Below, piece after piece: positions 2,286-22,243 of a stretch of 64,000 nt of DNA; positions within the stretch are counted from its first letter, which is position 1; the number at the start of each line of letters is the position of its first letter. A program made the translations under genes and the position numbers. Source of the stretch: Lysobacterales bacterium (lineage in GTDB: Bacteria > Pseudomonadota > Gammaproteobacteria > Xanthomonadales > Xanthomonadaceae); the NCBI GenBank assembly GCA_038323475.1, contig JBBQHA010000001.1, positions 720 through 64,719 of the forward strand, given 5' to 3'. The notes beneath the pieces were generated by a model. The model did not search any database and was not told the DNA's origin. It saw only the letters and a program-made list of their open reading frames with translations.

Positions 2286-3764
2286 CTACAATTCCCCAAG
2301 CCCGTCCGCCACGCCGTCCTTGCCCACTTCCAGCAGACGCAACGTGTTGGTTGCGCCGCGCAGTTCCATCGTGTCGCCGCTGGTGAAGATCAGCTTGTCG
2401 CCTTCGGCGAGCAGGCCGGCCCGGAACAGCACGCCGACCGCGGAACGCGCGGCGTCGCGCGGCGGCAGGCCGCGGCTGTCGAACGCGATCGGGAACACGT
2501 CGCGCATCATCGCCATCCGCCGGCGCGCGTCGGCATGGCGCGAGAGTCCGTAGATCGGCACCGATGAGCGATAGCGCGACAGGAACCGCGCGGTGCCGCC
2601 GGATTCGGTCAGCACGACCACGGCGCGCACCTTGATGTGTTCGGTCAGGAACATCGTCGCCATCGCGATCGCCTGGTCGGCCTGTTCGAGGTTGCGCTGC
2701 GCCTTCTCGAAATCGGTGTCGGCCTCGAACTGGCGCTCGGCGCCGAGGCAGATGCGCACCATCGCCTCGACCGCGCGCAACGGATGCAGGCCCGACGCCG
2801 ATTCGGCCGACAGCATCACCGCGTCGGTGCCGTCGATCACCGCATTGGCGACATCGAGGACTTCGGCGCGCGTCGGGATCGGGTGGTCGACCATCGACTG
2901 CAGCATCTGCGTCGCGGTGATGACGACGCGACTGCGCGCGCGCGTCTCGCGGATGATCTTCTTCTGCAGGCCCGGCAATTCGGCGTCGCCGATCTCCACG
3001 CCGAGGTCGCCGCGCGCGACCATCACCACGTCGGACGCATCGATGATCTCGGCGAGGTTCTCGATCGCCTCTGCGCGCTCGATCTTCGCGACCAGCGCCG
3101 CGCGCGACCCCGCCTCGCGCGCGAGCCGGCGCGCCTCGTGCATGTCCTGCGCGGAACGGCAGAACGAAATCGCCATGAAATCCACGCCGATCTTCGCCGC
3201 ATGCACGATGTCGGCGCGGTCCTTGTCGGACAGCGCGCCCAGCGACAGCCCGCCGCCGAGCCTGTTCAATCCCTTGCGATCCGACAGCACGCCATCGGTG
3301 ATCACGACGGTGCGGATGTCGGCGCCTTCGATCGCGACCACGCGCAGCGCGATCAGGCCGTCGTCGAGCAGCAGCACGTCGCCCGCATGCACGTCGTCGA
3401 CCAGCCCGAGGTAACTCATGCCGACCCGGGTTTCGTCGCCCATCGGTGCATCCGCGCGGCACATCAGGGTGAAGGCCCCGCCTTCGCGCAGTTGCACCTT
3501 GCCCTCGGCGAAGCGCTCGACGCGGATCTTCGGGCCCTGGAAATCGGCGAGCACGCCGACTTCGCGACGCAGCTCCTGCGCGATCGCGCGCACCTCGGCT
3601 GCGCGCCGCGCGTGGTCCTCCGCCAGGCCGTGCGAAAAGTTCAGCCGCACCACGTCCACGCCCGCGCGCAGCAGCGATTCGAGCACGCCGGGCGCATCGG
3701 TGGAGGGACCGAGCGTGGCAAGGATCTTGGTGCGGCGCAGCTGGTCGGTCATGACGGGATCCAT
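2286..3764 (-). CDS. pykA: pyruvate kinase
   Basis: 492 aa with RRTKILATLGPSTD, VDVVRLNFSHG, MVARGDLGVEI and ATQMLQSM motifs. Start could be the internal Met 4 codons downstream. Confidence 0.95.
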   Translation of the reverse strand: MDPVMTDQLRRTKILATLGPSTDAPGVLESLLRAGVDVVRLNFSHGLAEDHARRAAEVRAIAQELRREVGVLADFQGPKIRVERFAEGKVQLREGGAFTLMCRADAPMGDETRVGMSYLGLVDDVHAGDVLLLDDGLIALRVVAIEGADIRTVVITDGVLSDRKGLNRLGGGLSLGALSDKDRADIVHAAKIGVDFMAISFCRSAQDMHEARRLAREAGSRAALVAKIERAEAIENLAEIIDASDVVMVARGDLGVEIGDAELPGLQKKIIRETRARSRVVITATQMLQSMVDHPIPTRAEVLDVANAVIDGTDAVMLSAESASGLHPLRAVEAMVRICLGAERQFEADTDFEKAQRNLEQADQAIAMATMFLTEHIKVRAVVVLTESGGTARFLSRYRSSVPIYGLSRHADARRRMAMMRDVFPIAFDSRGLPPRDAARSAVGVLFRAGLLAEGDKLIFTSGDTMELRGATNTLRLLEVGKDGVADGLGEL

Positions 3765-6243: not shown

Positions 6244-8290
6244 TTCCGTTGTCGTCCAGGATTCCCTTGACCAGCCTGCTCAACCGGTCCTCGCGCACTT
6301 CGGCGGTGTCGTTCCTGGACACCAGGAAACGCCGGTTGACCAGGTCGTTGACCTGGCGCTCGCCCTCGACCAGGCGCCCGACCGCATCGCCTTCGACGTA
6401 TGCGGCGGTGCTGCGGTAACGGTGCACGAAGCTCACCTGCGCATCCTTCTGGCTGGTCGTGAGCGAGTAGTTCATGCCGGGCACGTCGATCGACTTGTGC
6501 AGGTTCGCACCGCGCCACGACCAGCCCGGCGGAAGCTCGAACTCGATGCGCTGCTCGGCATCGACGGGATTGCTGAGCGCGATCGGATAGTGGTTTTCCA
6601 TGCCGGCCGGCAGCTGCACATAGGTTTCGATCGCATTGGCTTCGGTGTCGAAACCGCGGATCCCCTCGTCGAAATCGGCCCAGGGATCGCCCAGGGCGTA
6701 GCTTTCGGTGATGACGATGCGATTGGCCGCAGGATCGTCCTGCACCTGCAAGGGTTCGGCCACGCGGATATGGCTGTAACGCTTGCCGTAGTAGTTCATG
6801 TACTCGCTCTGCAGGCGTTCGCGATCGGTGTCGGCGAGGCGAGTGCGCATGCTCTCCGCCGCCGTGCCGCCGACTTCGGTGATCACCTGCAGGCGCACGT
6901 TCTTGCCGTCCGCATCCGGCTGGTAGCGCTCGTTCACGCGCCAGCGCGCGAGCGCGCCGGATGTCTGCGTCACCGGAACCAGCGCATCGACGCCGGCAGC
7001 CACCGGCAGGGCGTCGCCGAAATTCGAAACGGCGTGATCGTCGAGGCTGCCGCGTTGCTGGCTGCGGGTCGGATCGAGCCAGATCGTCCGGCTGCCGAGA
7101 TGCACCCGCACGATCACATGGTCGAAAGCCGCCGCCGAGGGCGGTTGCCGCGCCGCCCAAGGTCCGCCGCGACTGGCCACCAGCGCGGGTTCGGCGACGA
7201 TGCCAAGCCGGCCGAGGATGGTCGCGAGCAGGCGCGCCTTGTCCTTGCAATCGCCCGCGCGCTTGCGCCACACGTCCGCCGGTTCGGCCGGGCGATGCGA
7301 GTTCTCGCCGATCTCGACGCCGAAATAGCGCACCTGGTCCTGCACCGCTTCCAGCGCATGCACGACGCGCGACTCCTTGTCCGGCAGCGCCGACCATTCG
7401 CGGATCAGCGCCTCGAGGTCTTCCGGCAGCGGTTTCGCGGCCGGATACAGCGCACGCGCCCAGGTCGCGATGTCCCGCCAGCTATGACGTTCGGCGATGA
7501 TCGCGCGCGGCAGCGGAACGAACCACGACGGATAACTGCCGTCTTCCGAAACCGGCTTGAGGTTGTGCTGTTCGATGGTGATCAGTTTGCCGGCGGCGAC
7601 CGTCTCGACGCGCTCGGCGGGAATCCGCGCATCGCGCTGCACCAGCGGATCGGAACCGGCATCGAAGATCACCCGCATCCGCTGCCACAACAACGGGCTC
7701 TTGCCGCCGAAGCTCAGGTCTTCCGCGTCGAGTCCCGCGAGCACCGGGTTGGCACCTTCAACGGTGTAGCTGACCCGCACCAGGTCGCCAACGCGCAGGT
7801 CATCGAGCACCAGCAGCGCGGTGACCTCGCCCGTGGATAGGTCGGACTCGAAATCCGTTTCGCGCCGGGCCAGGGTGATCGCCTCGGGCTTCAGCCGCGT
7901 CGTCCAGCGACCGTCCCTCCGCAATTCGACGCGGTGGATCGTGAGCGACTGGAAATCCGGCAGGAAACCGATCTGGTACTTGGATGCATCCGCAAGCCCT
8001 GCCTGCGTCATCGGCTGGTAGATGTAGTCGTGGTAAACCGCGCGCTTGCCGTGGCGTCGGTCCACCTGGATGTCGTACTGCCAGTTGCGCCAGACCGCGC
8101 CGGTCGCCCCGGGCGCATCCGCCGCCCATTGCTCCGCAGGCCTCGCCGGATCGACCCAGTCCGGTGCGGGCGCAACGTCGAATCGGTAGCCACCGGTGTT
8201 GAATGCCTGCGCGTGCACGCCGACGACCGCCACCATCCACACCGCGCAGCACAGGGCGCACGCCTGCAATCCGTCCCGCAACCGTTTCAT
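6209..8290 (-). CDS. DUF3857-type N-domain / transglutaminase-like cysteine protease family protein, secreted
   Basis: Start placed at MKRLRDGLQACALCCAVWMVAVVGVHAQA (signal peptide; ATG at 8288-8290). Transglutaminase core triad context: RAGDCKDKARLLATILG (Cys), AFDHVIVRVHL (His), WLDPT (Asp). Confidence 0.75.
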   Translation of the reverse strand: MKRLRDGLQACALCCAVWMVAVVGVHAQAFNTGGYRFDVAPAPDWVDPARPAEQWAADAPGATGAVWRNWQYDIQVDRRHGKRAVYHDYIYQPMTQAGLADASKYQIGFLPDFQSLTIHRVELRRDGRWTTRLKPEAITLARRETDFESDLSTGEVTALLVLDDLRVGDLVRVSYTVEGANPVLAGLDAEDLSFGGKSPLLWQRMRVIFDAGSDPLVQRDARIPAERVETVAAGKLITIEQHNLKPVSEDGSYPSWFVPLPRAIIAERHSWRDIATWARALYPAAKPLPEDLEALIREWSALPDKESRVVHALEAVQDQVRYFGVEIGENSHRPAEPADVWRKRAGDCKDKARLLATILGRLGIVAEPALVASRGGPWAARQPPSAAAFDHVIVRVHLGSRTIWLDPTRSQQRGSLDDHAVSNFGDALPVAAGVDALVPVTQTSGALARWRVNERYQPDADGKNVRLQVITEVGGTAAESMRTRLADTDRERLQSEYMNYYGKRYSHIRVAEPLQVQDDPAANRIVITESYALGDPWADFDEGIRGFDTEANAIETYVQLPAGMENHYPIALSNPVDAEQRIEFELPPGWSWRGANLHKSIDVPGMNYSLTTSQKDAQVSFVHRYRSTAAYVEGDAVGRLVEGERQVNDLVNRRFLVSRNDTAEVREDRLSRLVKGILDDNGNGASPDADRKN

Positions 8291-15183: not shown

Positions 15184-15579
15184 CTAGGAGGAAATCTGGT
15201 TGCTGTCGATGCGTCGCACGGGGGCGGCTGGCACTGGAACCGATGGGGGCGGCAAGATCGCCAACCTGGCATGGCTGCGCACAGGCGCGACCGGAGCGGC
15301 ATTGCGGCCCTTGGTCAACACCCTGGACAGGCGCTTGAGGGTCATGATGAATCCGCGCCCTGCGATGACTTTCGGAGTCTCGATCGCTTCGGCGGTCGGA
15401 TCGCCATCCGATCCCCGCCACGACTGCACGCGGTCGACGTCGTAGTCGGCCCAGCGCGAGTGGAAGATGCCGTTGGCGAAGGTTCCGTGGATCGCCTGCT
15501 TGCGATCTTCGAGCATGAACTCGATCGGCTCACCCGTGTAGGGCAGGAAGGTCGAGCTGAAGATCCATTTCGTTTGCAT
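15184..15579 (-). CDS. hypothetical protein
   Basis: ORF 15184..15609, trimmed to MQTKWIFSSTFLPYTGEPIEFMLEDRKQAIHGTF. No recognisable family. The coding call rests only on ORF length and codon bias. Confidence 0.4.
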   Translation of the reverse strand: MQTKWIFSSTFLPYTGEPIEFMLEDRKQAIHGTFANGIFHSRWADYDVDRVQSWRGSDGDPTAEAIETPKVIAGRGFIMTLKRLSRVLTKGRNAAPVAPVRSHARLAILPPPSVPVPAAPVRRIDSNQISS

Positions 15580-15728
15580 GACGCGGCTCCCCGCCAGCGA
15601 CGCGCGCATCCCGCGCGCGAGGCGGTCGCGTCCTTGCGACCATTCGCTAGATCCTTGCGTGGCCCCGTCCCTAGGGCACAGCTTCCAGATCCTTCATCGC
15701 AATGGTGTGCGTTCTATCGGAAGCGGTC

Positions 15729-15744
15729 TGTCTGCCAGCGTACA
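15729..15744 (+). promoter_or_regulatory. CRP/FNR-like 16-bp box A (TGTCTGCCAGCGTACA)
   Basis: Imperfect 5-6-5 dyad, 14/16 identical to box E. Lies in the gap between the hypothetical gene start and the stop of Crp paralog 1. Confidence 0.4.
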
Positions 15745-15763
15745 TAGGCCGGAGTTGCAGCTA

Positions 15764-16480
15764 TCAGCAGCCGAGTAAGCTCGTGTAGGCGTCGCGATCG
15801 ATGCGGTAGCAGGCGCAGGAAACCGCTTCCAGGCCGGAGCGGTCGAGGATCGTGATCGTGCCGCGCGTGTAGCTGATCAGGCCTCTGTCCTGCAGCGCAC
15901 CTGCGGCCTTGGTGATTCCGACGCGGCGCATCCCGAGCATGTAACCGAGGAATTCCTGGGTCAGGTGGAAGGTGTCGCTGGACGAGCGGTCGTGGGTCAT
16001 CAGCAGCCAGCGCGCGACCCGCGCCTCGAGCAGGTGGAAACGCGTGCACGCGCCGGCCTGCGCCATCTGCGACATCAGCACATACACGTAGCGATCCAGC
16101 AGGCGCCGCAACGACGCATTGCGCGCGAGTTCGCGCCGGAACGCGGTGGCGTCCATGCGCAATGCCGAGCCCGCACCTTGCACGAGCGCGCGTTGCGGCG
16201 CGACGTCGACACCCAGCACCAGCGAAATGCCATGCATGCCCTCGCAACCGACCATGCCCACCTCGAAGCCGGCCTGGTGGTCGATCGGCGTGATCAGCGA
16301 GATGAAGCTTCCGATCGGGAAATACACATGATCGATGCGGTCGCCGCGTTCGCAGAGCACATCGGACTCGACGAGGTCCACCTCGTCGCAATGGGCGATC
16401 AATCGTTGCCGGTCGACATGCGGCAGGCGGGCGAGCAGGTGGTTCGCGGGAACCGGGGGCGCATTGGCGCGCAATGACAT
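15764..16480 (-). CDS. Crp/Fnr family transcriptional regulator (paralog 1)
   Basis: Start trimmed to MSLRANAPP (ATG at 16478-16480). cNMP-binding-like beta-roll (DHVYFPIGSFISL, GMVGCEGMHG), C-terminal HTH LTQEFLGYMLGMRRVGITKAAGALQDRGLISYTRGTITILDR, then the tail SCACY. Confidence 0.8.
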   Translation of the reverse strand: MSLRANAPPVPANHLLARLPHVDRQRLIAHCDEVDLVESDVLCERGDRIDHVYFPIGSFISLITPIDHQAGFEVGMVGCEGMHGISLVLGVDVAPQRALVQGAGSALRMDATAFRRELARNASLRRLLDRYVYVLMSQMAQAGACTRFHLLEARVARWLLMTHDRSSSDTFHLTQEFLGYMLGMRRVGITKAAGALQDRGLISYTRGTITILDRSGLEAVSCACYRIDRDAYTSLLGC

Positions 16481-16658
16481 GATGGACGGCCTGTGGTGGC
16501 GTTGGAGAACCCAACGGCCGGCACAAGGAGGATTCCATTCCAAATGTCGGATCAGCGGTGAATGAACGCACGATGCGTCCGGGACGACTATACACACTCC
16601 GAACTTCACGAAAATCGTGCGCAGCGCTTCCATTCATCTTCAACAACGCGATGCGGAC

Positions 16659-17399
16659 TCAAGCAGGCGTGAGTGGATTCGCGCTCGCCGTCGTGTCCCA
16701 CGGCAGCAGGCGCATGTATTCGCTGCGCACCGCCTCGTAGCATTCGCAGGCCAGTCTTTCCAGTTGCACACGGTCGAGCACGGTGATGCGGCCGCGCTGG
16801 TAGCGGATCGCACCCGCCTGCTGCAGCTTTCCGGCTGCTTCGGTCACGCCCTCGCGGCGCACGCCGAGCATGTTGGCGATGAGCTCCTGGGTCATGCTCA
16901 AGTCGCTGCCCGGCAAACGATCGATGCTCATCAGCAGCCAGCGGCATAGCTGCTGGTCCAGATTGTGGTGGCGATTGCATACCGCGGTCTGGCCGATCTG
17001 CATCATCAGGGCCTGGCTGTAACGCAGCAGGATCTGCTGGGCGGCTCCGGCACGCTCGAATTCCTTGCGCAGGTCGCGCGCCTGCATGCGCATCGCGACC
17101 CCGGCGGCCTGCACGATCGCGCGGTGTGGGGACTTGCTGCCACCAGTGATCACCGGCATCCCGACGAGGCCGTCGTTTCCGATGATCGCGACTTCGGCGG
17201 TGTCGCCGTCCTCCAGCACGTAGAGCAGCGACACCACGCAATCGATCGGGAAATACACCTGCGTCTGCGAAGCACCCGCTTCATGGACCACCATCCCGAG
17301 CGGCATCGGCACCGGCTCCAGGTACGCGGCGAGGCGCTCGCGCTCGTCGGCCCGGATCGAGTCGAGAATGTGGTTGGATTTCCTGCCGTTCTTGAACAC
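16659..17399 (-). CDS. Crp/Fnr family transcriptional regulator (paralog 2)
   Basis: 246 aa: QVYFPIDCVVSLLYVLEDGDTAEVAIIGNDGLVG, TAVCNRHHNLDQQLCRWLLMSIDRL, HTH MTQELIANMLGVRREGVTEAAGKLQQAG, GRITVLDR, ACECY. Confidence 0.85.
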   Translation of the reverse strand: MFKNGRKSNHILDSIRADERERLAAYLEPVPMPLGMVVHEAGASQTQVYFPIDCVVSLLYVLEDGDTAEVAIIGNDGLVGMPVITGGSKSPHRAIVQAAGVAMRMQARDLRKEFERAGAAQQILLRYSQALMMQIGQTAVCNRHHNLDQQLCRWLLMSIDRLPGSDLSMTQELIANMLGVRREGVTEAAGKLQQAGAIRYQRGRITVLDRVQLERLACECYEAVRSEYMRLLPWDTTASANPLTPA

Positions 17400-17486
17400 G
17401 AAAACACCCGCATGCGAATGGAGGTCGGGGACCAGAACGGCAAGACCCCTTGGTACCGAAGTTTATCTGCGGATTTCGGCCTGCTA

Positions 17487-17502
17487 TGTACGCTGACGCA
17501 CA
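17487..17502 (-). promoter_or_regulatory. CRP/FNR-like 16-bp box B (reverse strand TGTGCGTCAGCGTACA)
   Basis: 15/16 identical to box E. Lies 88-103 nt upstream of the Crp paralog 2 start. A -10-like TAAACT (17460-17465, reverse strand) sits 22-27 nt past the box on the gene side, which is class II CRP promoter geometry. Confidence 0.5.
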
Positions 17503-17919
17503 TAACCGATTTTCGTTTCGTGCATGCTCAGCGCCCCTGCACGAAGCGGCAGCATTCGACGCGTTCGCACCGACCACAGCGCAGGATATTGCGCACGGGA
17601 GACCCGCTCCGGCGGCAAGCAGCAACCAGATGATTTCCCGACGCGCACGCCATGTCGTCCGCGCGCGCCACTACGCGAATGCGCCAGTACGGCCGTTGTG
17701 ACCTCGCTGGAGCCGACAATGATCCTGGCAATGGGCGACGTGGTGCCGATGATCGCGCTCGCGATCCGGCTGCCGATCGCGCAGATGAACCAGCGGGTGC
17801 GCTGAGGGAATAAGGGCGCCTGCAGGCCAGGCATGGCTCCTCTGGCTTTGCCGCTCAGCGCGCCATCGTGAATCGAATCGTCCAGGTCATTAAGCTTGGC
17901 TCTCTGATCGGCCACTCTG

Positions 17920-17935
17920 CGTACGCTAACGCACG
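17920..17935 (-). promoter_or_regulatory. CRP/FNR-like 16-bp box C (reverse strand CGTGCGTTAGCGTACG)
   Basis: 13/16 identical to box B. Lies upstream of the GT2 synthase gene. A -10-like GAAAAT at 17957-17962 sits 22-27 nt past the box toward the gene. Confidence 0.45.
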
Positions 17936-18003
17936 GTGGCGCCCTTCCTGCGCCCCGAAAATGGCCGACCGCGACAAGGCCGCGATACGTCGACTGCGCA
18001 TGC

Positions 18004-19479
18004 GTGCAGTTGATTCGATGGCTTCGGTCCATTCCAGAGCGATCCCTGCAGATGACGACGGTCCCCCCCACCGTGGGTACTGGTGCGCACGACGAAATCA
18101 TGTCGGGCGAACCGCTACGATCCGGCCCGATGCGTCCGGGCCGGAGAAGTGACGGCCGCGGCATCTACCTTCCGGTGACGCTGAAGTTCGCAATCGCCTT
18201 GTCCGTCGCAATCGCTTGGTGCGTGCTGAGTATGTGGCTGTCGGAACCGTGGGTACGCGACCTGGCGAGGGTGACAGGGTGGCCGCTGGCGATCTTCGTG
18301 ATCACTTTCATCGCCTATGTGCCCGGTTTCATGAATGCGTTCCTGATCACGACGATTGCGCTGGATCGGCGCCCCAGGCGAGACCCGGTGGATCGCTATC
18401 CGGACATCAGCATTCTTGTCGCCTGCTTCAATGAGGCCGGCAAGATTGCCGACACCATCGGCAGCCTCGCATTGCAGCAGTATCCAGGACGCATGGAAGT
18501 CTTGCTTCTCGACGATGGATCGACGGACGCCACGATCGCGGTGGCGCATGCGGCGATTGCGGCCGCCACGGCGCAACCGGGACACACATTCCGGGTTGTC
18601 GTTGGCGGCAGCAATGTCGGCAAGGCGGGCGTGCTCAATCGCGGCCTGGCGATGGCTACCACCGACATCATCCTGACCATCGACGGCGATTGCTGGGTGT
18701 ACCAAGACGCGGTTCAACGACTGGTCGGGCGATATCTCAGCGACCCGCCCGGCACGCGGGCAGTTGCGGGCGCCGTGCTGGTGAGCAATTCACGCCAAAA
18801 CTGGCTGACCAAAGCGCAGGAGTGGGACTATTTCCATGGCATAGCCGCGGTAAAGCGCATGCAGAGCATGTACCACGGCACGCTCGTCGCGCAGGGCGCC
18901 TTTTCGCTGTACGACCGCGACGCGCTGAACGAGGTCGGCGGTTGGCCCGCCTGCGTCGGGGAGGACATCGTGGTGACATGGGCGTTGCTGGAACAGGGCT
19001 ATCGGGTCGGGTATTGCGAGGATGCGATCGCGTTCACCAATGTCCCCGAAAAACTCAAGATCTTCGCATTGCAGCGCAAACGCTGGTCGCGCGGCCTGAT
19101 GGAGGCATTCAAGCTGCATGGCGGCCTGCTGTTCAAGCCGCGACTGACCACGTTGTTCATCTGGTGGAACCTGCTGTTCCTGCCGCTCGACCTGGTCTAC
19201 ACGTTCGCGTTCATTCCCGGCCTGGTGCTGGCGCTGTTCGGCTACTTCTACCTTGCCGGCATCCTCACCTTGCTGGTGTTGCCGCTGGCAGCGCTGTGGA
19301 ACTACTGCATCTTCGTGGTGCAAAACCGGATGTTCAAGCGACAGGACCTGAAGGTACGCCGCAACGCTGGTGGCTTCCTGTTTTATGCGCTCGGCTATTC
19401 GCTGCTGATGCAGCCGGTGTGCGTGTGGGGCTACGTTGCCGAATTGCTTGGCATGAGCAAACGCTGGGGTACCAAATGA
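18004..19479 (+). CDS. processive family-2 glycosyltransferase (PgaC/IcaA/NodC-like polysaccharide synthase), integral membrane
   Basis: ISILVACFNEAG, LLLDDGSTDAT (DxD), TIDGDCW, VGEDIVVTW and the Q(R/Q)xRW motif QRKRWSRG, followed by C-terminal TM helices. The true start is uncertain; Met codons occur at 18004, 18052, 18100 and 18130. Confidence 0.85.
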   Translation: MQLIRWLRSIPERSLQMTTVPPTVGTGAHDEIMSGEPLRSGPMRPGRRSDGRGIYLPVTLKFAIALSVAIAWCVLSMWLSEPWVRDLARVTGWPLAIFVITFIAYVPGFMNAFLITTIALDRRPRRDPVDRYPDISILVACFNEAGKIADTIGSLALQQYPGRMEVLLLDDGSTDATIAVAHAAIAAATAQPGHTFRVVVGGSNVGKAGVLNRGLAMATTDIILTIDGDCWVYQDAVQRLVGRYLSDPPGTRAVAGAVLVSNSRQNWLTKAQEWDYFHGIAAVKRMQSMYHGTLVAQGAFSLYDRDALNEVGGWPACVGEDIVVTWALLEQGYRVGYCEDAIAFTNVPEKLKIFALQRKRWSRGLMEAFKLHGGLLFKPRLTTLFIWWNLLFLPLDLVYTFAFIPGLVLALFGYFYLAGILTLLVLPLAALWNYCIFVVQNRMFKRQDLKVRRNAGGFLFYALGYSLLMQPVCVWGYVAELLGMSKRWGTK

Positions 19480-20378
19480 TATTTCGAACCGTGCGAGGCC
19501 TGATCGCAGCGATCGCAGTGGTGGTGTCGGTGTCGGCGCATGCAGGTGGATACGGCGGCGTCGAGGGCTTCCTCTCCAGCGACGCCGATGGCACCGAGAT
19601 CGCGAAAACCGCACTGGATCTGGATTTCCGGCATGCGGACGGCGAACATTACCAGGGCATGTCGCTGGAACAGGCTCGATTCCGGCCGTTCGGACAGGGT
19701 TGGATCGGGGATCGCCGCGCCTACTGGCGCTTCGCAGATGGCGGCGGGCAATGGAAGTGGAACGGCCGGATCGGCACCGATGGGCGCACGCTGCTCGGCA
19801 ACGCGTCCATCCACAATGAAGTCCCGCGCCGGCAGGAATACTTCCTCGAACGCGAGATCGTCGAAACGCCGCTTGGCTTGCAGCGCGACATCTACTCCAC
19901 CTACACAGGCGCGGCATACGACCTGCCCTTCGACGACCGCAACATCCTCACCACCGTGCTGGGCGTCCAGGATTTCAGCGGGCGCAATGTGCGCCTGCAA
20001 TATCGCGGCAATTTCGTGCATGTCATCGCGCCCGCCTGGGGATTCAGCGCCCAGTTGCGGCTGCGCTACTTCCATGACAGCAATCCGCACGAGTTCGACT
20101 ATTTCTCGCCGCGCTGGTACGCGGAGGCGATACCCACGCTGCAGCTGCGGCGATTTCGTGCCGGCTGGCGCTATGCCATCGCGGCCGGATACGGTCGGCA
20201 GCGCGCCGCCGATTCAGGCTGGCACGATGCGCGGATATTCGTGGCTGCGGTGACCAGTCCGAAGGAAGGGCATGACTGGTTCTTCCAGGCGGGGTTCACC
20301 TACGCCAATACCCCCGTCAATAGCGGATTCACCTACGACTACAAGCAGCTGACGTTTTCGATCGGGCGTTCCTTCTAG
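19476..20378 (+). CDS. predicted outer-membrane beta-barrel protein (putative polysaccharide export porin)
   Basis: Start ATG 19476 overlaps the synthase stop (ATGA). Signal peptide MIFRTVRGLIAAIAVVVSVSAHA. Alternating aromatic/polar beta-strand-like segments. Terminal residues FSIGRSF end in Phe, as in OMP beta-signals. Confidence 0.6.
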   Translation: MIFRTVRGLIAAIAVVVSVSAHAGGYGGVEGFLSSDADGTEIAKTALDLDFRHADGEHYQGMSLEQARFRPFGQGWIGDRRAYWRFADGGGQWKWNGRIGTDGRTLLGNASIHNEVPRRQEYFLEREIVETPLGLQRDIYSTYTGAAYDLPFDDRNILTTVLGVQDFSGRNVRLQYRGNFVHVIAPAWGFSAQLRLRYFHDSNPHEFDYFSPRWYAEAIPTLQLRRFRAGWRYAIAAGYGRQRAADSGWHDARIFVAAVTSPKEGHDWFFQAGFTYANTPVNSGFTYDYKQLTFSIGRSF

Positions 20379-20393
20379 ACAAGCGCCTGCCTG

Positions 20394-20409
20394 TGTACGC
20401 TCGCGAACC
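20394..20409 (-). promoter_or_regulatory. CRP/FNR-like 16-bp box D (reverse strand GGTTCGCGAGCGTACA), weakest copy
   Basis: 13/16 identical to box E. Lies between the convergent ends of the barrel gene and Crp paralog 3. Confidence 0.3.
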
Positions 20410-20559
20410 GCGCGCCGGTGGCAGCAGCCGCAGGCTTCATCGCCGCAGAGACAGCTCATTCGATGAGGGATGGGATGCATGGCGCGATCGGCAACGGAGA
20501 CGTTGCCTGATGCAATGCACTCCTGGTTCGGAGAACAGGCGGAGTTCCGGCGTCTGCGC

Positions 20560-21279
20560 TCACGGCGTCATCGTTGCCGGCAGCAGGCGGTCGTATTCGT
20601 CCTTGACCACGGCATAGCACTCGCACGTGCGTCGTTCGAGCCCAGGTCGGTCGAGCACGGTGATTCGGCCACGCCGGTAGTTGATGAGCCCGGCCTGATG
20701 CAGGTTGCCGGCTGCCTCGGTGACGCCTTCGCGGCGCACGCCGAGCATGTTGGCGATGAGTTCCTGCGTCATCACCAGTTCGTTCGATTGCAGGCGGTCG
20801 AGGCTCAACAGCAGCCAGCGGCACAACTGCTGGTCGAGCGAGTGGTGGCGGTTGCAGACTGCCGTCTGCGACATCTGGGTGATCAATGCCTGGGTGTAGC
20901 GCAGCAGCAGGTGCAATGCGGGGCCTGCCCGGTCGAACTCCTCCATCAGCATGTTCGCCTTCAGCCGATAGCCGTGCCCGGCGCTCTGCACGACCGCACG
21001 GCTCGGCGTCGAATTGCCGCCCATGAACAGCGAAATGCCGACGACCCCTTCATACCCGACGATCGCGATCTCGGCCGAGGAGCCGTTTTCCATCACGTAC
21101 AACAGCGAGACGATCGAGGTCGTCGGGAAATAGACATGGGCCAACTTGTCGCCCGACTCGTAGAGCACCTTCCCCAGCGGCATGTCCACGCTCTCGAGGT
21201 ACGGCAGCAAGCGCTGCCATTCGGCATCGGGAAGCGCCGCAAGCAGTCCGTTATGGCGCGGGTCGGCAGTGACGCTCAT
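20560..21279 (-). CDS. Crp/Fnr family transcriptional regulator (paralog 3)
   Basis: Start trimmed to MSVTADPRHN (ATG at 21277-21279). HVYFPTTSIVSLLYVMENGSSAEIAIVGYEGVVG, TAVCNRHHSLDQQLCRWLLLSLDRL, MTQELIANMLGVRREGVTEAAGNLHQAG, GRITVLDR, TCECY. Clearly paralogous to 16659..17399. Confidence 0.85.
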   Translation of the reverse strand: MSVTADPRHNGLLAALPDAEWQRLLPYLESVDMPLGKVLYESGDKLAHVYFPTTSIVSLLYVMENGSSAEIAIVGYEGVVGISLFMGGNSTPSRAVVQSAGHGYRLKANMLMEEFDRAGPALHLLLRYTQALITQMSQTAVCNRHHSLDQQLCRWLLLSLDRLQSNELVMTQELIANMLGVRREGVTEAAGNLHQAGLINYRRGRITVLDRPGLERRTCECYAVVKDEYDRLLPATMTP

Positions 21280-21418
21280 CCGCACCTCATGCGCCGCAAG
21301 GTCGTCGAATCCGGCATTGCGGAGGGGTTCGCGCAGTGCCGATCGGAAAGAACGATTTTGGACCTGCCCAGCAGCCACCGCAACACGGCAGCGCACGGAT
21401 ATCCGACAAGCCGGGGCG

Positions 21419-21434
21419 TGTGCGCCAGCGTACA
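21419..21434 (+). promoter_or_regulatory. CRP/FNR-like 16-bp box E (TGTGCGCCAGCGTACA)
   Basis: Best TGTGC-N6-GTACA match. Lies in the 532-bp divergent gap between Crp paralog 3 and the hypothetical gene at 21812. Followed by CGAAATC and GGTACC elements, as downstream of box B. Confidence 0.5.
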
Positions 21435-21811
21435 GATGCCCCGCGAAATCGCGACTAGCTTGGTACCGTTGCCGCTTCCAGCAACCTTGCAACCCTGGGC
21501 TCCCGGCATGACCGTGCAATTCCGTGACAAAGCGGACACCAGTCGCTATGCAGCCGCGGAGGATGCCTTTACCTCGGAAGGCGGCCATGTGGCGCTCGAA
21601 GACGAGGCGCCGGGGAAGGACGCCGCCACGGACCGTGGAAGCCTGCAGCCCGCCAGCGATTTCAGGACGACGATCCGTCGTTATTCTGCGCAGATGCATG
21701 CCGTTCTGGCGGGTTTCCGTCGCGGCGGGTCGCGGCGTGCACAGCGATCCGCGAACAATTCCACTCGGTAGCGCGCGAACGCGCGGCCGCCAACTCACTC
21801 GGGAGCAGCAC

Positions 21812-22243
21812 ATGGACAGGCAATTCCCAGTCTTCGCACCGCTCGGACGTCTTTACGATCCGCTGCCGCAATTGGCCGAGCGCGTCCATCGCGCCTTGCT
21901 GATCAAGGAGAAGATCGTCTGGACCGACAACAATGGCTACGTTTTCGCGACTCCGACGGATGGCCTGCGGACGATCGCGCCGCACGCGACCATCGGTGTC
22001 TTTGCGAAGTGGACGCCATTGCCGATGATCGAAACGGGCTTGCGGGTCGCGTTGCGCGAACGCGCGAGTGCGTGGATCGTGGACTGGAAGGCGCAATCGC
22101 CGGGCAAGCGGGGTGATGGCATCCAGATCATCCGGTTCGCGCCAGCGCGCAAGCGCCGGCGCAAGGCGACCGACGGGGCGACCCGGGCGACACTGCCGAA
22201 TGTCCATGTCCCGCAACCCGACCCATTGCAATCGCGGCTGTAG
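21812..22243 (+). CDS. hypothetical protein
   Basis: 143-aa ORF tail (MDRQFPVFAPLGRLYDPLPQLAERVH...) with GC3-biased codons and a basic C-terminus (ARKRRRK). No recognisable family. Confidence 0.4.
   Translation: MDRQFPVFAPLGRLYDPLPQLAERVHRALLIKEKIVWTDNNGYVFATPTDGLRTIAPHATIGVFAKWTPLPMIETGLRVALRERASAWIVDWKAQSPGKRGDGIQIIRFAPARKRRRKATDGATRATLPNVHVPQPDPLQSRL

What the first reader, a model, noticed from the sequence alone, without database searches (positions are those of the whole stretch)
15729..21434. Five copies of a 16-bp CRP-like box confined to the gaps around three Crp/Fnr paralogs and a synthase-porin pair
Reading the non-coding DNA by eye gives five 16-mers fitting TGTGC-N6-GTACA. A is 15729-15744 (+) TGTCTGCCAGCGTACA. 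B is 17487-17502 (-) TGTGCGTCAGCGTACA. C is 17920-17935 (-) CGTGCGTTAGCGTACG. D is 20394-20409 (-) GGTTCGCGAGCGTACA. E is 21419-21434 (+) TGTGCGCCAGCGTACA. B and E differ at 1/16 positions, A/E at 2/16, C/B and D/E at 3/16. All five sit in intergenic gaps of one 6-kb block. The 5-6-5 imperfect dyad is the layout of CRP/FNR operators (E. coli CRP: TGTGA-N6-TCACA). The adjacent regulators carry recognition helices RREGVT / RRVGIT resembling the CRP R-E-T-V contact residues. For B (toward Crp paralog 2) and C (toward the GT2 synthase), -10-like hexamers TAAACT and GAAAAT lie exactly 22-27 nt past the box, which is class II CRP-promoter geometry. Together this suggests a self-contained, auto-regulated circuit of three paralogous regulators controlling an exopolysaccharide module. 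I do not recognise this box as a described regulon.
Basis: partly seen in the sequence, partly recalled or inferred. Interest (0 to 1): 0.78.

Follow-up and report, generated by a model that had tools for sequence, protein, structure and literature searches.

The report
Operator boxes of Crp-paralog cassette
The five 16-bp boxes are real; at least four are very probably binding sites where a conserved but uncharacterised set of tandem Crp/Fnr-type regulators switches on its own genes, small stress-type genes and, in this lineage, a recently inserted two-gene polysaccharide export module.

Summary
All five boxes are at the stated coordinates. A weight matrix built only from foreign genomes ranks them as the top five hits in the 64-kb window.

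The true motif is a 20-bp palindrome, T-n-TGT-n-CG-n-TA-n-CG-n-ACA-n-A. It lies upstream of crp3 orthologs in 61 of 80 Beta- and Gammaproteobacterial loci. 92% of sites are intergenic.

A -10-like hexamer (nAnnnT) sits exactly 21 nt past the box nine times more often than at other offsets. That puts the box centre at about -41.5, which is class II activator geometry. Boxes A, B, C and E each have such a hexamer pointing at a gene. Box D is weak, not conserved and has no target.

The cassette crp3-(crp2)-crp1 is ancestral. Close relatives have it uninterrupted, so the GT2 synthase, the PgaA-like 16-strand barrel and a gspF relic are a lineage-specific insertion. Even so, the GT2 promoter box is conserved in other genomic contexts.

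The regulon is not self-contained. Elsewhere the box precedes CsbD, BON, DUF1328, DUF3309, OmpA and PAS hybrid-kinase genes.

I found no published description.

The parts
15184..15579 (-). Small gene (131 aa, no Pfam match), the predicted target of box A
   Evidence: ORF translated. Homologs lie directly after crp1 in L081 and L082, and beside the crp2-side boxes in the rearranged L083. No Pfam or NCBIfam match.
15702..15707 (-). -10-like hexamer CACCAT, 21 nt after box A, toward the small gene
   Evidence: Read. The same offset carries CAGCAT in L081 and CACCGT in L082.
15727..15746 (-). Box A (20-mer TATGTACGCTGGCAGACAGA), asymmetric subclass TGTRCG-N4-CAGACA
   Evidence: PWM score 20.3. Positional orthologs lie 18-19 nt after the crp1 stop in L081 and L082. 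The subclass recurs in 29 places.
15764..16480 (-). crp1, Crp/Fnr paralog (238 aa), recognition helix RRVGIT
   Evidence: Pfam HTH_Crp_2 2e-16. 81-88% identical orthologs in L081/L082. A crp1-type gene is present in 48 of 80 loci.
16659..17399 (-). crp2, Crp/Fnr paralog (246 aa, GTG start), recognition helix RREGVT
   Evidence: Pfam HTH_Crp_2 6e-16. 85-87% identical orthologs in L081/L082.
17460..17465 (-). -10-like hexamer TAAACT, 21 nt after box B, toward crp2
   Evidence: TAGGCT (L081) and TAGACT (L082) are conserved at the same column.
17485..17504 (-). Box B (20-mer TATGTGCGTCAGCGTACATA), the strongest site
   Evidence: PWM score 28.3. Aligned orthologous boxes in L081 (30.3) and L082 (28.0) lie between crp3 and crp2.
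17689..17805 (+). Relic of the 3' end of a gspF (type II secretion) gene, at one edge of the inserted segment
   Evidence: NCBIfam TIGR02120 GspF, profile positions 365-401 of 401, E 4e-7, on ORF 17524-17805. Absent from L081-L089.
17918..17937 (+). Box C (20-mer TGCGTACGCTAACGCACGGT), variant with CGT...ACG outer bases
   Evidence: PWM score 14.4. Box columns are invariant in an alignment with the GT2 upstream regions of L083 and L086, which sit in different genomic contexts.
17957..17962 (+). -10-like hexamer GAAAAT, 21 nt after box C, toward GT2
   Evidence: CAGAAT (L083) and CAGGCT (L086) sit at the same offset.
18052..19479 (+). GT2 processive synthase, PgaC/NodC-like (475 aa from ATG 18052; the ORF is open from 18004)
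   Evidence: Pfam Glycos_transf_2, Glyco_tranf_2_3 and Chitin_synth_2. NCBIfam PgaC_IcaA 151 bits, below the 422 cut-off. Orthologs are 475 aa.
19476..20378 (+). 16-strand outer-membrane beta-barrel, PgaA/BcsC-like (300 aa). Its ATG overlaps the GT2 stop codon (ATGA).
   Evidence: AlphaFold2 pLDDT 88.6, signal helix plus 16 strands. Best TM-scores to the PgaA barrel 4Y25 (0.66/0.68) and BcsC. Homologs reach the PF21197 PgaA_barrel threshold.
20392..20411 (.). Box D (20-mer TGTGTACGCTCGCGAACCGC), doubtful or orphan site between two convergent gene ends
   Evidence: PWM score 12.2, the weakest. Not conserved at the homologous place in L083. The only -10-like hexamer (CAGGCT, 20431-20436, + strand) points into the 3' end of crp3.
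20560..21279 (-). crp3, Crp/Fnr paralog (239 aa), recognition helix RREGVT. It is the most conserved member of the cassette.
   Evidence: Pfam HTH_Crp_2 3e-15. 75-89% identical orthologs across Xanthomonadales/Rhodanobacteraceae and Burkholderiales. CRP/FNR fold.
21417..21436 (+). Box E (20-mer CGTGTGCGCCAGCGTACAGA)
   Evidence: PWM score 21.6. Aligned orthologous boxes in L081 and L082.
21456..21461 (+). -10-like hexamer TAGCTT, 21 nt after box E, toward the divergent small gene
   Evidence: TAGCGT (L081) and CATGCT (L082) sit at the same column. The spacing toward crp3 is not conserved: there are indels of about 80 nt.
21508..21771 (+). Small gene (87 aa, no Pfam match), the predicted target of box E
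   Evidence: Homologs (45-55% identity) lie in the same divergent position in L081 and L082.
21812..22243 (+). Second small ORF (143 aa), possibly co-transcribed with the 87-aa gene
   Evidence: ORF only; no family match and no homolog found in the fetched loci. Its membership in the system is inferred from position.

Best explanation
The boxes are operators of a conserved, horizontally spread subfamily of Crp/Fnr regulators that occurs as a tandem cassette: crp3-crp1, or here crp3-crp2-crp1.

A regulator dimer is inferred to bind the 20-bp palindrome T-n-TGT-n-CG-n-TA-n-CG-n-ACA-n-A. In most promoters the site is centred about 41.5 bp upstream of the transcription start. There it overlaps a weak -35 (core GAC) that lies 17 bp from a YAnnnT -10. 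The regulator would therefore recruit RNA polymerase as a class II activator, as CRP and FNR do.

In this window four such promoters are predicted:
- A to the 131-aa gene
- B to crp2 (and probably crp1), giving positive feedback
- C to the GT2 synthase and PgaA-like barrel
- E to the divergent 87-aa gene

Box D is probably a weak or orphan site.

The synthase-barrel pair was inserted between crp3 and crp2 in this lineage, and it brought or acquired its own box.

Shown: motif, conservation, spacing, synteny, insertion. Inferred: which protein binds, the sign of regulation, the transcription starts. Unknown: the effector. The family has invariant Cys/His residues, and its cNMP pocket is not canonical.
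For: - Foreign-genome PWM: the five boxes are the top five window hits.
- Unseeded dyad search: TGT-N10-ACA is the top dyad upstream of crp3 orthologs, 57 observed against 2.5 expected.
- Position: 72 pattern hits fall in the bin from -250 to 0 relative to the crp3 start, against 1-7 in other upstream bins. 61 of 80 loci have a site there.
- Positions not used for selection are conserved: T at -2, TA at the centre, A at +17, each about 0.75.
- 222 of 240 sites are intergenic, although about 69% of the DNA is coding.
- Spacing: TANNNT occurs at offset 21 in 70 cases against about 2 elsewhere, and NANNNT in 145 against about 16. 139 of 210 sites have it. The promoter-proximal flank reads G-A-C.
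- Boxes A, B and E have aligned orthologs in L081/L082. Box C has them in L083/L086.
- Reverse association: 26 of 80 metagenome contigs chosen by the bare consensus encode a crp3/crp1-type gene.
- The CRP R180/E181 equivalents are kept in Crp2 and Crp3. HTH_Crp_2 and the CRP/FNR fold are present.
- No consensus sigma-70 promoter lies in the block, as expected for activator-dependent promoters.
Against: - There are no binding, transcription-start or expression data for any member, so the identity of the binding protein and the sign of regulation are inferred.
- Box D lacks conservation and a target.
- Box E is not at class II distance from crp3 in this lineage, so crp3 autoregulation here is unproven.
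- No box lies between crp2 and crp1.
- L088 and L089 carry the GT2-barrel pair without a box, so its control by the box is lineage-specific.
- One third of sites show no -10-like hexamer at offset 21.
Confidence: 0.75

Rival explanations
1. The boxes are operators of the same Crp paralogs, but they act mainly as repressor sites. Negative autoregulation would work by occluding the -35 region rather than by activation.
For: The site overlaps the -35 position. A site there can repress as well as activate. Box E lies about 78 bp upstream of a possible crp3 promoter, at a spacing that is not conserved.
Against: The promoters have poor -35 hexamers and often weak -10 hexamers (CAnnnT). No consensus sigma-70 promoter is found in the block. 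This is the signature of activator-dependent promoters. The exact, phase-locked 21-nt spacing is what class II activation requires, and occlusion does not need it.
Confidence: 0.12
2. A different transcription factor binds the palindrome, for example the partner of the box-associated PAS hybrid kinase. The crp genes would then be targets only.
For: No binding data exist. PAS hybrid kinases are recurrent neighbours and targets (13 loci).
Against: The dyad has CRP/FNR spacing (TGT-N10-ACA) and class II placement. The box tracks the crp cassette across classes and even onto pKLC102. The hybrid kinase is absent from this window's block and from L081/L082. Crp2 and Crp3 retain the CRP residues that read the TGTG half-site.
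Confidence: 0.08
3. The boxes are non-functional sequence repeats: a REP/MITE-like dispersed element, or leftovers of duplicating paralog promoters.
For: B and the + direction of E share about 50 nt of similar box-plus-promoter sequence. The paralogs arose by duplication.
Against: Only five copies occur in 64 kb, all in one block. The flanks of the five copies do not align. The motif is conserved at fixed promoter geometry in genera of two proteobacterial classes, and 92% of sites are intergenic.
Confidence: 0.02

Closest known systems
E. coli CRP (CAP) at class II promoters, consensus TGTGA-N6-TCACA centred at -41.5
   Same: Same protein superfamily (HTH_Crp_2, CRP fold). Same outer dyad TGT-N10-ACA and central TA (CRP ideal site TGTGATCTAGATCACA against TGTGCGCTAGCGCACA here). 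Same inferred -41.5 placement. The R180/E181 equivalents are kept in Crp2 and Crp3.
   Different: Positions 5-6 of each half-site are CG, not AT. The R185 equivalent is E or K. The cAMP-contacting RS motif is not aligned. Identity is only 18%. There is a C-terminal extension of about 25 residues with an invariant CxC. The genes occur as two or three tandem paralogs.
NtcA (cyanobacterial global nitrogen regulator; GTA-N8-TAC, class II)
   Same: Best NCBIfam and among the best PDB sequence matches. In every window box one half-site reads TGTA...TACA, as at NtcA sites. Class II activator.
   Different: NCBIfam score of 30-32 bits against a cut-off of 245, so it is not an NtcA. The family-wide consensus prefers TGTG and needs the inner CG. 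There is no link to nitrogen genes.
FNR/Anr and the Burkholderia cenocepacia lxa low-oxygen motif (TGA-N6-TCA)
   Same: CRP/FNR superfamily. Stress or persistence-type regulon. Paralogous Crp-family regulators in Burkholderiales (PMC3721108).
   Different: The lxa/FNR box is TTGA-N6-TCAA-like (PMC3721108). The FNR N-terminal Cys cluster and the E--SR helix are absent here.
BerA (Bcam1349) of B. cenocepacia and Clp of Xanthomonas: Crp-family effectors that activate exopolysaccharide genes
   Same: A Crp/Fnr-type regulator coupled to a polysaccharide locus (PMC5552954). The crp3 family is present on B. cenocepacia chromosome 2.
   Different: I could not establish a sequence relationship to BerA. 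berA is sigma-54/BerB dependent, whereas crp3 orthologs carry a sigma-70-type class II box. No BerA consensus was available for comparison.
pgaABCD / bcs synthase-dependent exopolysaccharide systems
   Same: A GT2 processive synthase plus a 16-strand export barrel structurally closest to PgaA and BcsC.
   Different: Only two genes. No PgaB deacetylase, PgaD or TPR periplasmic domain. The GT2 scores far below the PgaC equivalog cut-off. The polymer is unknown.

Membership tests
CRP/FNR transcription factor superfamily (the three regulators) | C-terminal Crp-type winged helix-turn-helix | tested here: met
   PF13545 HTH_Crp_2 scores 56-60 bits against a cut-off of 27 for all three.
CRP/FNR transcription factor superfamily (the three regulators) | N-terminal cNMP-type beta-barrel sensor domain followed by a long dimerisation helix | tested here: met
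   By sequence it is only borderline: PF00027 gives 26.5 and 23.9 bits against a cut-off of 27.5, and nothing for Crp1. The AlphaFold2 model (pLDDT 72) has the barrel plus a long helix. It aligns over its full length to GlxR, M. tuberculosis CRP, NtcA and FNR with TM 0.6-0.66.
cAMP-dependent CRP proper | cAMP-contacting residues (E72, R82, S83, T127, S128) and the AR1 surface | tested here: not met
Identity is 18%. AR1 was not examined.
FNR / Anr | N-terminal Cys cluster plus C122, E--SR recognition helix, TTGAT-N4-ATCAA box | tested here: not met
   There are no N-terminal cysteines and the helix is RREGVT/RRVGIT. The box is TGTnCG-N4-CGnACA.
NtcA | Score above the TIGR03697 equivalog cut-off | tested here: not met
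   30-32 bits against a cut-off of 244.95.
CRP-type operator | Two-fold symmetric site with TGT and ACA 10 bp apart, enriched upstream of the regulator's own gene and of its targets | tested here: met
Class II CRP/FNR-dependent promoter | Site centred near -41.5 relative to the transcription start, overlapping the -35 region | tested here: inconclusive
   A -10-like hexamer lies exactly 21 nt after the box in 139 of 210 sites and for boxes A, B, C and E. This implies -41.5, but no transcription start has been measured.
Class II CRP/FNR-dependent promoter | Regulator binds the site and activates transcription | not testable with these tools
   Needs EMSA or DAP-seq, and reporter or in-vitro transcription assays.
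pga (PNAG) operon | PgaC equivalog together with PgaA, PgaB and PgaD | tested here: not met
   The GT2 scores 151 bits against 422. The barrel is PgaA-like by fold. No PgaB or PgaD gene is in the block.
REP / MITE dispersed repeat | Many dispersed copies with conserved flanks, usually outside promoters | tested here: not met
   There are five copies in 64 kb, all in one block. Their flanks do not align.

The most novel reading that the evidence does not exclude
This may be an uncharacterised, horizontally mobile Crp/Fnr subfamily. It is 75-89% identical across Xanthomonadales and Burkholderiales and is also found on P. aeruginosa pKLC102. Its sensing would depend on an invariant Cys/His set (C142, H146, C153 and a C-terminal CxC in Crp3), that is on a redox, metal or Fe-S signal, rather than on a cyclic nucleotide. 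It would work as a cascade or as heterodimers of two or three paralogs. These differ at the CRP-E181 position (E in Crp2/3, V in Crp1) and so may read position 4 of the half-site differently. It would control a general-stress-type regulon (CsbD, BON, DUF1328, DUF3309, OmpA, hybrid kinase), into which some Xanthomonadales have wired a minimal synthase-plus-barrel exopolysaccharide module.
Probability: 0.35. Interest if true: 0.7.

Novelty: new member of a known kind. Interest (0 to 1): 0.55.

Why it matters
The result defines a consensus operator, a promoter architecture and a first regulon sketch for a very widespread Crp/Fnr subfamily. That subfamily is still annotated only generically: more than 8000 close homologs were found in the protein search, and it occurs in Variovorax, Polaromonas, Dyella, Burkholderia, Ralstonia and on pKLC102. 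The predictions are directly testable: four transcription starts and four box mutations.

It also gives a clean example of regulon growth by insertion, in which a mobile synthase-barrel module landed inside the regulator cassette and carries the cassette's operator.

If the invariant cysteines prove to be the sensor, this would add a new input type to the CRP/FNR superfamily.

Tried and rejected
- **Source contig.** An exact look-up of the window's Crp3 found nothing. The 100%-identical P0001 exists on a 76.9-kb NCBI contig, but I did not fetch it.
- **lxa motif of B. cenocepacia.** Read and rejected. It is TGA-N6-TCA, FNR-like.
- **BerA (Bcam1349).** The relationship is left open.
- **Literature.** Searches on the motif string, on CsbD/BON/DUF1328/DUF3309 with Crp, and on CRP/FNR superfamily surveys found no description of this box or cassette. 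The S. maltophilia paper concerns the canonical crp (as annotated in the paper; my reading is that this is the Clp-type gene) and was not used.
- **Barrel family against PDB by sequence profile.** No hit. Fold comparison was needed.
- **Paralog heterodimers, tested through half-site position 4.** Mixed G/non-G sites number 120 against 104.5 expected, only marginal (my chi-square about 4.7). Not claimed.
- **GT2-barrel as conserved neighbours of crp3.** They are absent from all 80 genome loci apart from weak GT2 hits. This led to the insertion reading.
- **Weak PWM hits at 2636 and 15884.** Both lie inside long ORFs and were treated as chance.
- **Consensus promoter scan.** No sigma-70 consensus promoter in the block.

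Full report
**Observation**

The core AGCGTACA occurs four times against 0.49 expected.

That pattern was derived from the sites themselves, so I built an independent test. A search for relatives of the third regulator (Crp3, 20560-21279, minus strand) returned 80 loci from GTDB species genomes. They share 75-83% protein identity and span Rhodanobacteraceae/Xanthomonadales (Dyella, Rhodanobacter, Dokdonella, Thermomonas), Burkholderiales (Variovorax, Polaromonas, Aquabacterium, Collimonas, Ramlibacter) and Chromatiales.

A relaxed palindrome scan found a site within 350 nt upstream of the crp3 ortholog in 61 of the 80 loci. 72 hits fall in the single 250-bp bin before the start codon, against 1-7 in other upstream bins. 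An unseeded search over all inverted trinucleotide dyads with gaps of 0-16 gave TGT-N10-ACA as the top dyad upstream of crp3 orthologs: 57 observed, 2.5 expected.

The matrix made from those foreign sites shows conservation at positions that were not used for selection: T at -2, TA at the centre and A at +17, each about 0.75. Only 0.4 hits of score 12 or more are expected.

**Genes in the block**

All three regulators carry the Crp-type HTH (PF13545, 56-60 bits). Two have a borderline cNMP-domain match. The Crp3 model has the CRP/FNR fold but no close solved relative, at 14-22% identity.

The synthase is a GT2 of the PgaC/NodC/chitin-synthase type, well below every NCBIfam equivalog cut-off. 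Comparison with orthologs puts its start at ATG 18052, giving 475 aa.

The "porin" is a signal peptide followed by a 16-strand barrel (pLDDT 88.6). Its best TM-scores are to the exopolysaccharide export barrels PgaA (4Y25) and BcsC, with PelB scoring somewhat lower. Close homologs reach the PF21197 PgaA_barrel threshold. Its ATG overlaps the GT2 stop codon. "Synthase-porin pair" is therefore a fair description. It is not a pga operon, because PgaB and PgaD are missing.

**Promoter geometry**

I took the 210 intergenic sites of score 14 or more in the 80 loci and examined both directions from each.

- TANNNT begins exactly 21 nt after the 16-mer in 70 cases, against about 2 at any other offset.
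- The looser NANNNT does so in 145 cases against about 16. 139 of the 210 sites have it in at least one direction.
- On that side the three bases after the box are G-A-C. With a 17-bp spacer to the hexamer, these sit where the GAC core of a -35 element would be.

This places the box centre at -41.5 if transcription starts about 7 nt after the hexamer. That is the class II arrangement of CRP and FNR (established knowledge).

In the window each box has such a hexamer:

| Box | Hexamer | Coordinates | Points toward |
|---|---|---|---|
| A | CACCAT | 15707-15702 (-) | 131-aa gene |
| B | TAAACT | 17465-17460 (-) | crp2 |
| C | GAAAAT | 17957-17962 (+) | GT2 |
| E | TAGCTT | 21456-21461 (+) | divergent 87-aa gene |
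| D | CAGGCT | 20431-20436 (+) | only the 3' end of crp3 |

A consensus scan finds no sigma-70 consensus promoter in the block. That is consistent with activator-dependent promoters.

**Synteny and the insertion**

Two close relatives were examined: L081, a Xanthomonadaceae MAG, and L082, a JGI contig that also shares the PGK and TPR-sulfotransferase neighbours. Both have crp3, crp2, crp1 and the 131-aa gene contiguous, with no synthase or barrel.

- Boxes A, B and E have aligned orthologs there.
- The B promoter is conserved down to the -10 column.
- Toward crp3 the spacing from E is broken by indels of about 80 nt, while the -10 toward the small divergent gene is kept. In this lineage E therefore serves the small gene.

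The roughly 3-kb segment that holds a gspF 3' relic, GT2 and the barrel is therefore an insertion between crp3 and crp2.

The same two-gene module occurs elsewhere in varied contexts:

- L083-L085: between crp3 and an inverted crp2-crp1 pair.
- L086/L087: beside a two-partner secretion pair and a PAS protein.
- L088: beside an AraC-family gene.
- L089: next to a tRNA gene.

In L083 and L086 a box of the same variant type (CGT...ACG outer bases) lies upstream of GT2 with a -10-like hexamer at offset 21. The three upstream regions align with the box columns invariant. L088 and L089 have no box.

Box C is thus a conserved feature of the GT2 promoter in part of the Xanthomonadales. Box D is not conserved in L083, where homologous DNA follows the barrel gene. 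I regard it as a weak or orphan site.

**The regulon elsewhere**

In the 80 loci, 222 of 240 sites of score 12 or more are intergenic, although about 69% of the DNA is coding by my rough gene calls. Genes downstream of sites cluster as follows:

| Gene family downstream of a site | Count |
|---|---|
| Crp paralogs | 84 |
| PAS-HisKA-HATPase-REC hybrid kinases | 13 |
| A 128-aa family of unknown function | 10 |
| CsbD | 8 |
| Fatty-acid hydroxylase | 6 |
| BON | 5 |
| OmpA | 4 |
| DUF1328 | 3 |
| DUF3309 | 3 |

This looks like a stress or envelope regulon, not a self-contained circuit.

As a reverse test I scanned metagenome contigs for the bare consensus TGTGCGCTAGCGCACA. 26 of 80 mostly short contigs encode a crp3/crp1-type gene, and 34 of 80 have both flanking T and A.

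The cassette itself is conserved. 51 of 80 loci hold two or three paralogs, and 35 have a same-strand paralog starting within 600 nt after crp3.

**Which protein binds, and what it senses**

This part is inference. Crp2 and Crp3 have the helix RREGVT, which keeps the CRP R180 and E181 equivalents that read the TGTG half-site.

From established CRP genetics (Ebright's E181 substitutions; my recollection), such a change relaxes the preference for G at the fourth half-site base. That base is the variable one here: G 0.55, T 0.22, A 0.18. Mixed half-sites are only marginally over-represented, 120 against 104.5 expected, so I do not claim heterodimers.

The cAMP-contacting motif does not align. Instead all Crp3 orthologs keep C142, H146, C153 and a C-terminal C219-x-C221, and Crp1 orthologs keep C145, H149 and C222-x-C224. 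These lie in a roughly 25-residue extension that CRP lacks. A redox, metal or Fe-S input is possible but untested.

**Comparison with known systems and novelty**

The site resembles the ideal CRP site: TGTGATCTAGATCACA against TGTGCGCTAGCGCACA. The placement is class II. The proteins are nevertheless far from CRP, FNR and NtcA.

The B. cenocepacia lxa motif is FNR-like and different. BerA is sigma-54 controlled and no site consensus was available.

The family is present in B. cenocepacia, Ralstonia, Cupriavidus and on P. aeruginosa pKLC102. On pKLC102 boxes flank the homolog, which sits next to a GH94 glucan-synthase gene.

Six literature searches found no description of this box or cassette. 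The library is incomplete, so "undescribed" is provisional. I file the finding as a new member of a known kind: a CRP/FNR class II activator with its operator.

**Verdict**

It needs three corrections. The true consensus is a 20-bp palindrome. The synthase-barrel pair is a late insertion into an older cassette. The regulon extends well beyond this block. Interest is moderate.

Noticed in passing
window 17524-17805 (GspF-like part about 17689-17802): A short ORF whose last 37 residues match the extreme C-terminus of the type II secretion protein GspF (profile positions 365-401 of 401, E 4e-7). It looks like a truncated gene relic at one edge of the inserted GT2-barrel segment.
   Followed up: partly
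window 20560-21279 (Crp3), 16659-17399 (Crp2), 15764-16480 (Crp1): All Crp3 orthologs keep C142, H146, C153 and C219-x-C221. Crp1 orthologs keep C145, H149 and C222-x-C224. The CxC lies in a C-terminal extension absent from CRP. This could be a redox, metal or Fe-S sensing site.
   Followed up: partly
window 15729-15744; L008, L012, L020, L026, L048, L057, L059, L081, L082 and others: A recurrent asymmetric box subclass, TGTRCG-N4-CAGACA followed by GAC. The degenerate half is always promoter-proximal. It typically precedes crp1, or the gene after crp1.
   Followed up: partly
window 19476-19479: The barrel gene's ATG overlaps the GT2 stop codon (ATGA), which suggests translational coupling of synthase and exporter.
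   Followed up: no
L211 (P. aeruginosa pKLC102, NC_019202 86782-101483): A 71%-identical Crp3 homolog sits on the mobile element pKLC102 next to a GH94 (cyclic-glucan-synthase-like) gene. Six box-like sites lie in the surrounding intergenic gaps, one with TAGACT at offset 21.
   Followed up: partly
L083-L085 versus the window: In these contigs the GT2-barrel pair also lies between crp3 and crp2/crp1, but the crp2-crp1 segment is inverted relative to the window. The cassette has been rearranged more than once.
   Followed up: partly
L089 about 6270-6350: In L089, one of the two contexts where the GT2-barrel module lacks a box, it lies directly after what looks like a tRNA gene from the sequence; I did not run a tRNA scan. 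This would fit a mobile module.
   Followed up: no
L015, L016, L036, L039, L050, L056, L062, L080 and others; L086 5970: PAS-HisKA-HATPase-REC hybrid histidine kinases, or PAS-rich proteins, are repeatedly preceded by strong boxes near the crp cassette. They may be an input or output link.
   Followed up: partly
window 2636-2655 and 15884-15903: Two weak PWM hits (10.1 and 8.4) lie inside long ORFs and are probably chance matches.
   Followed up: partly
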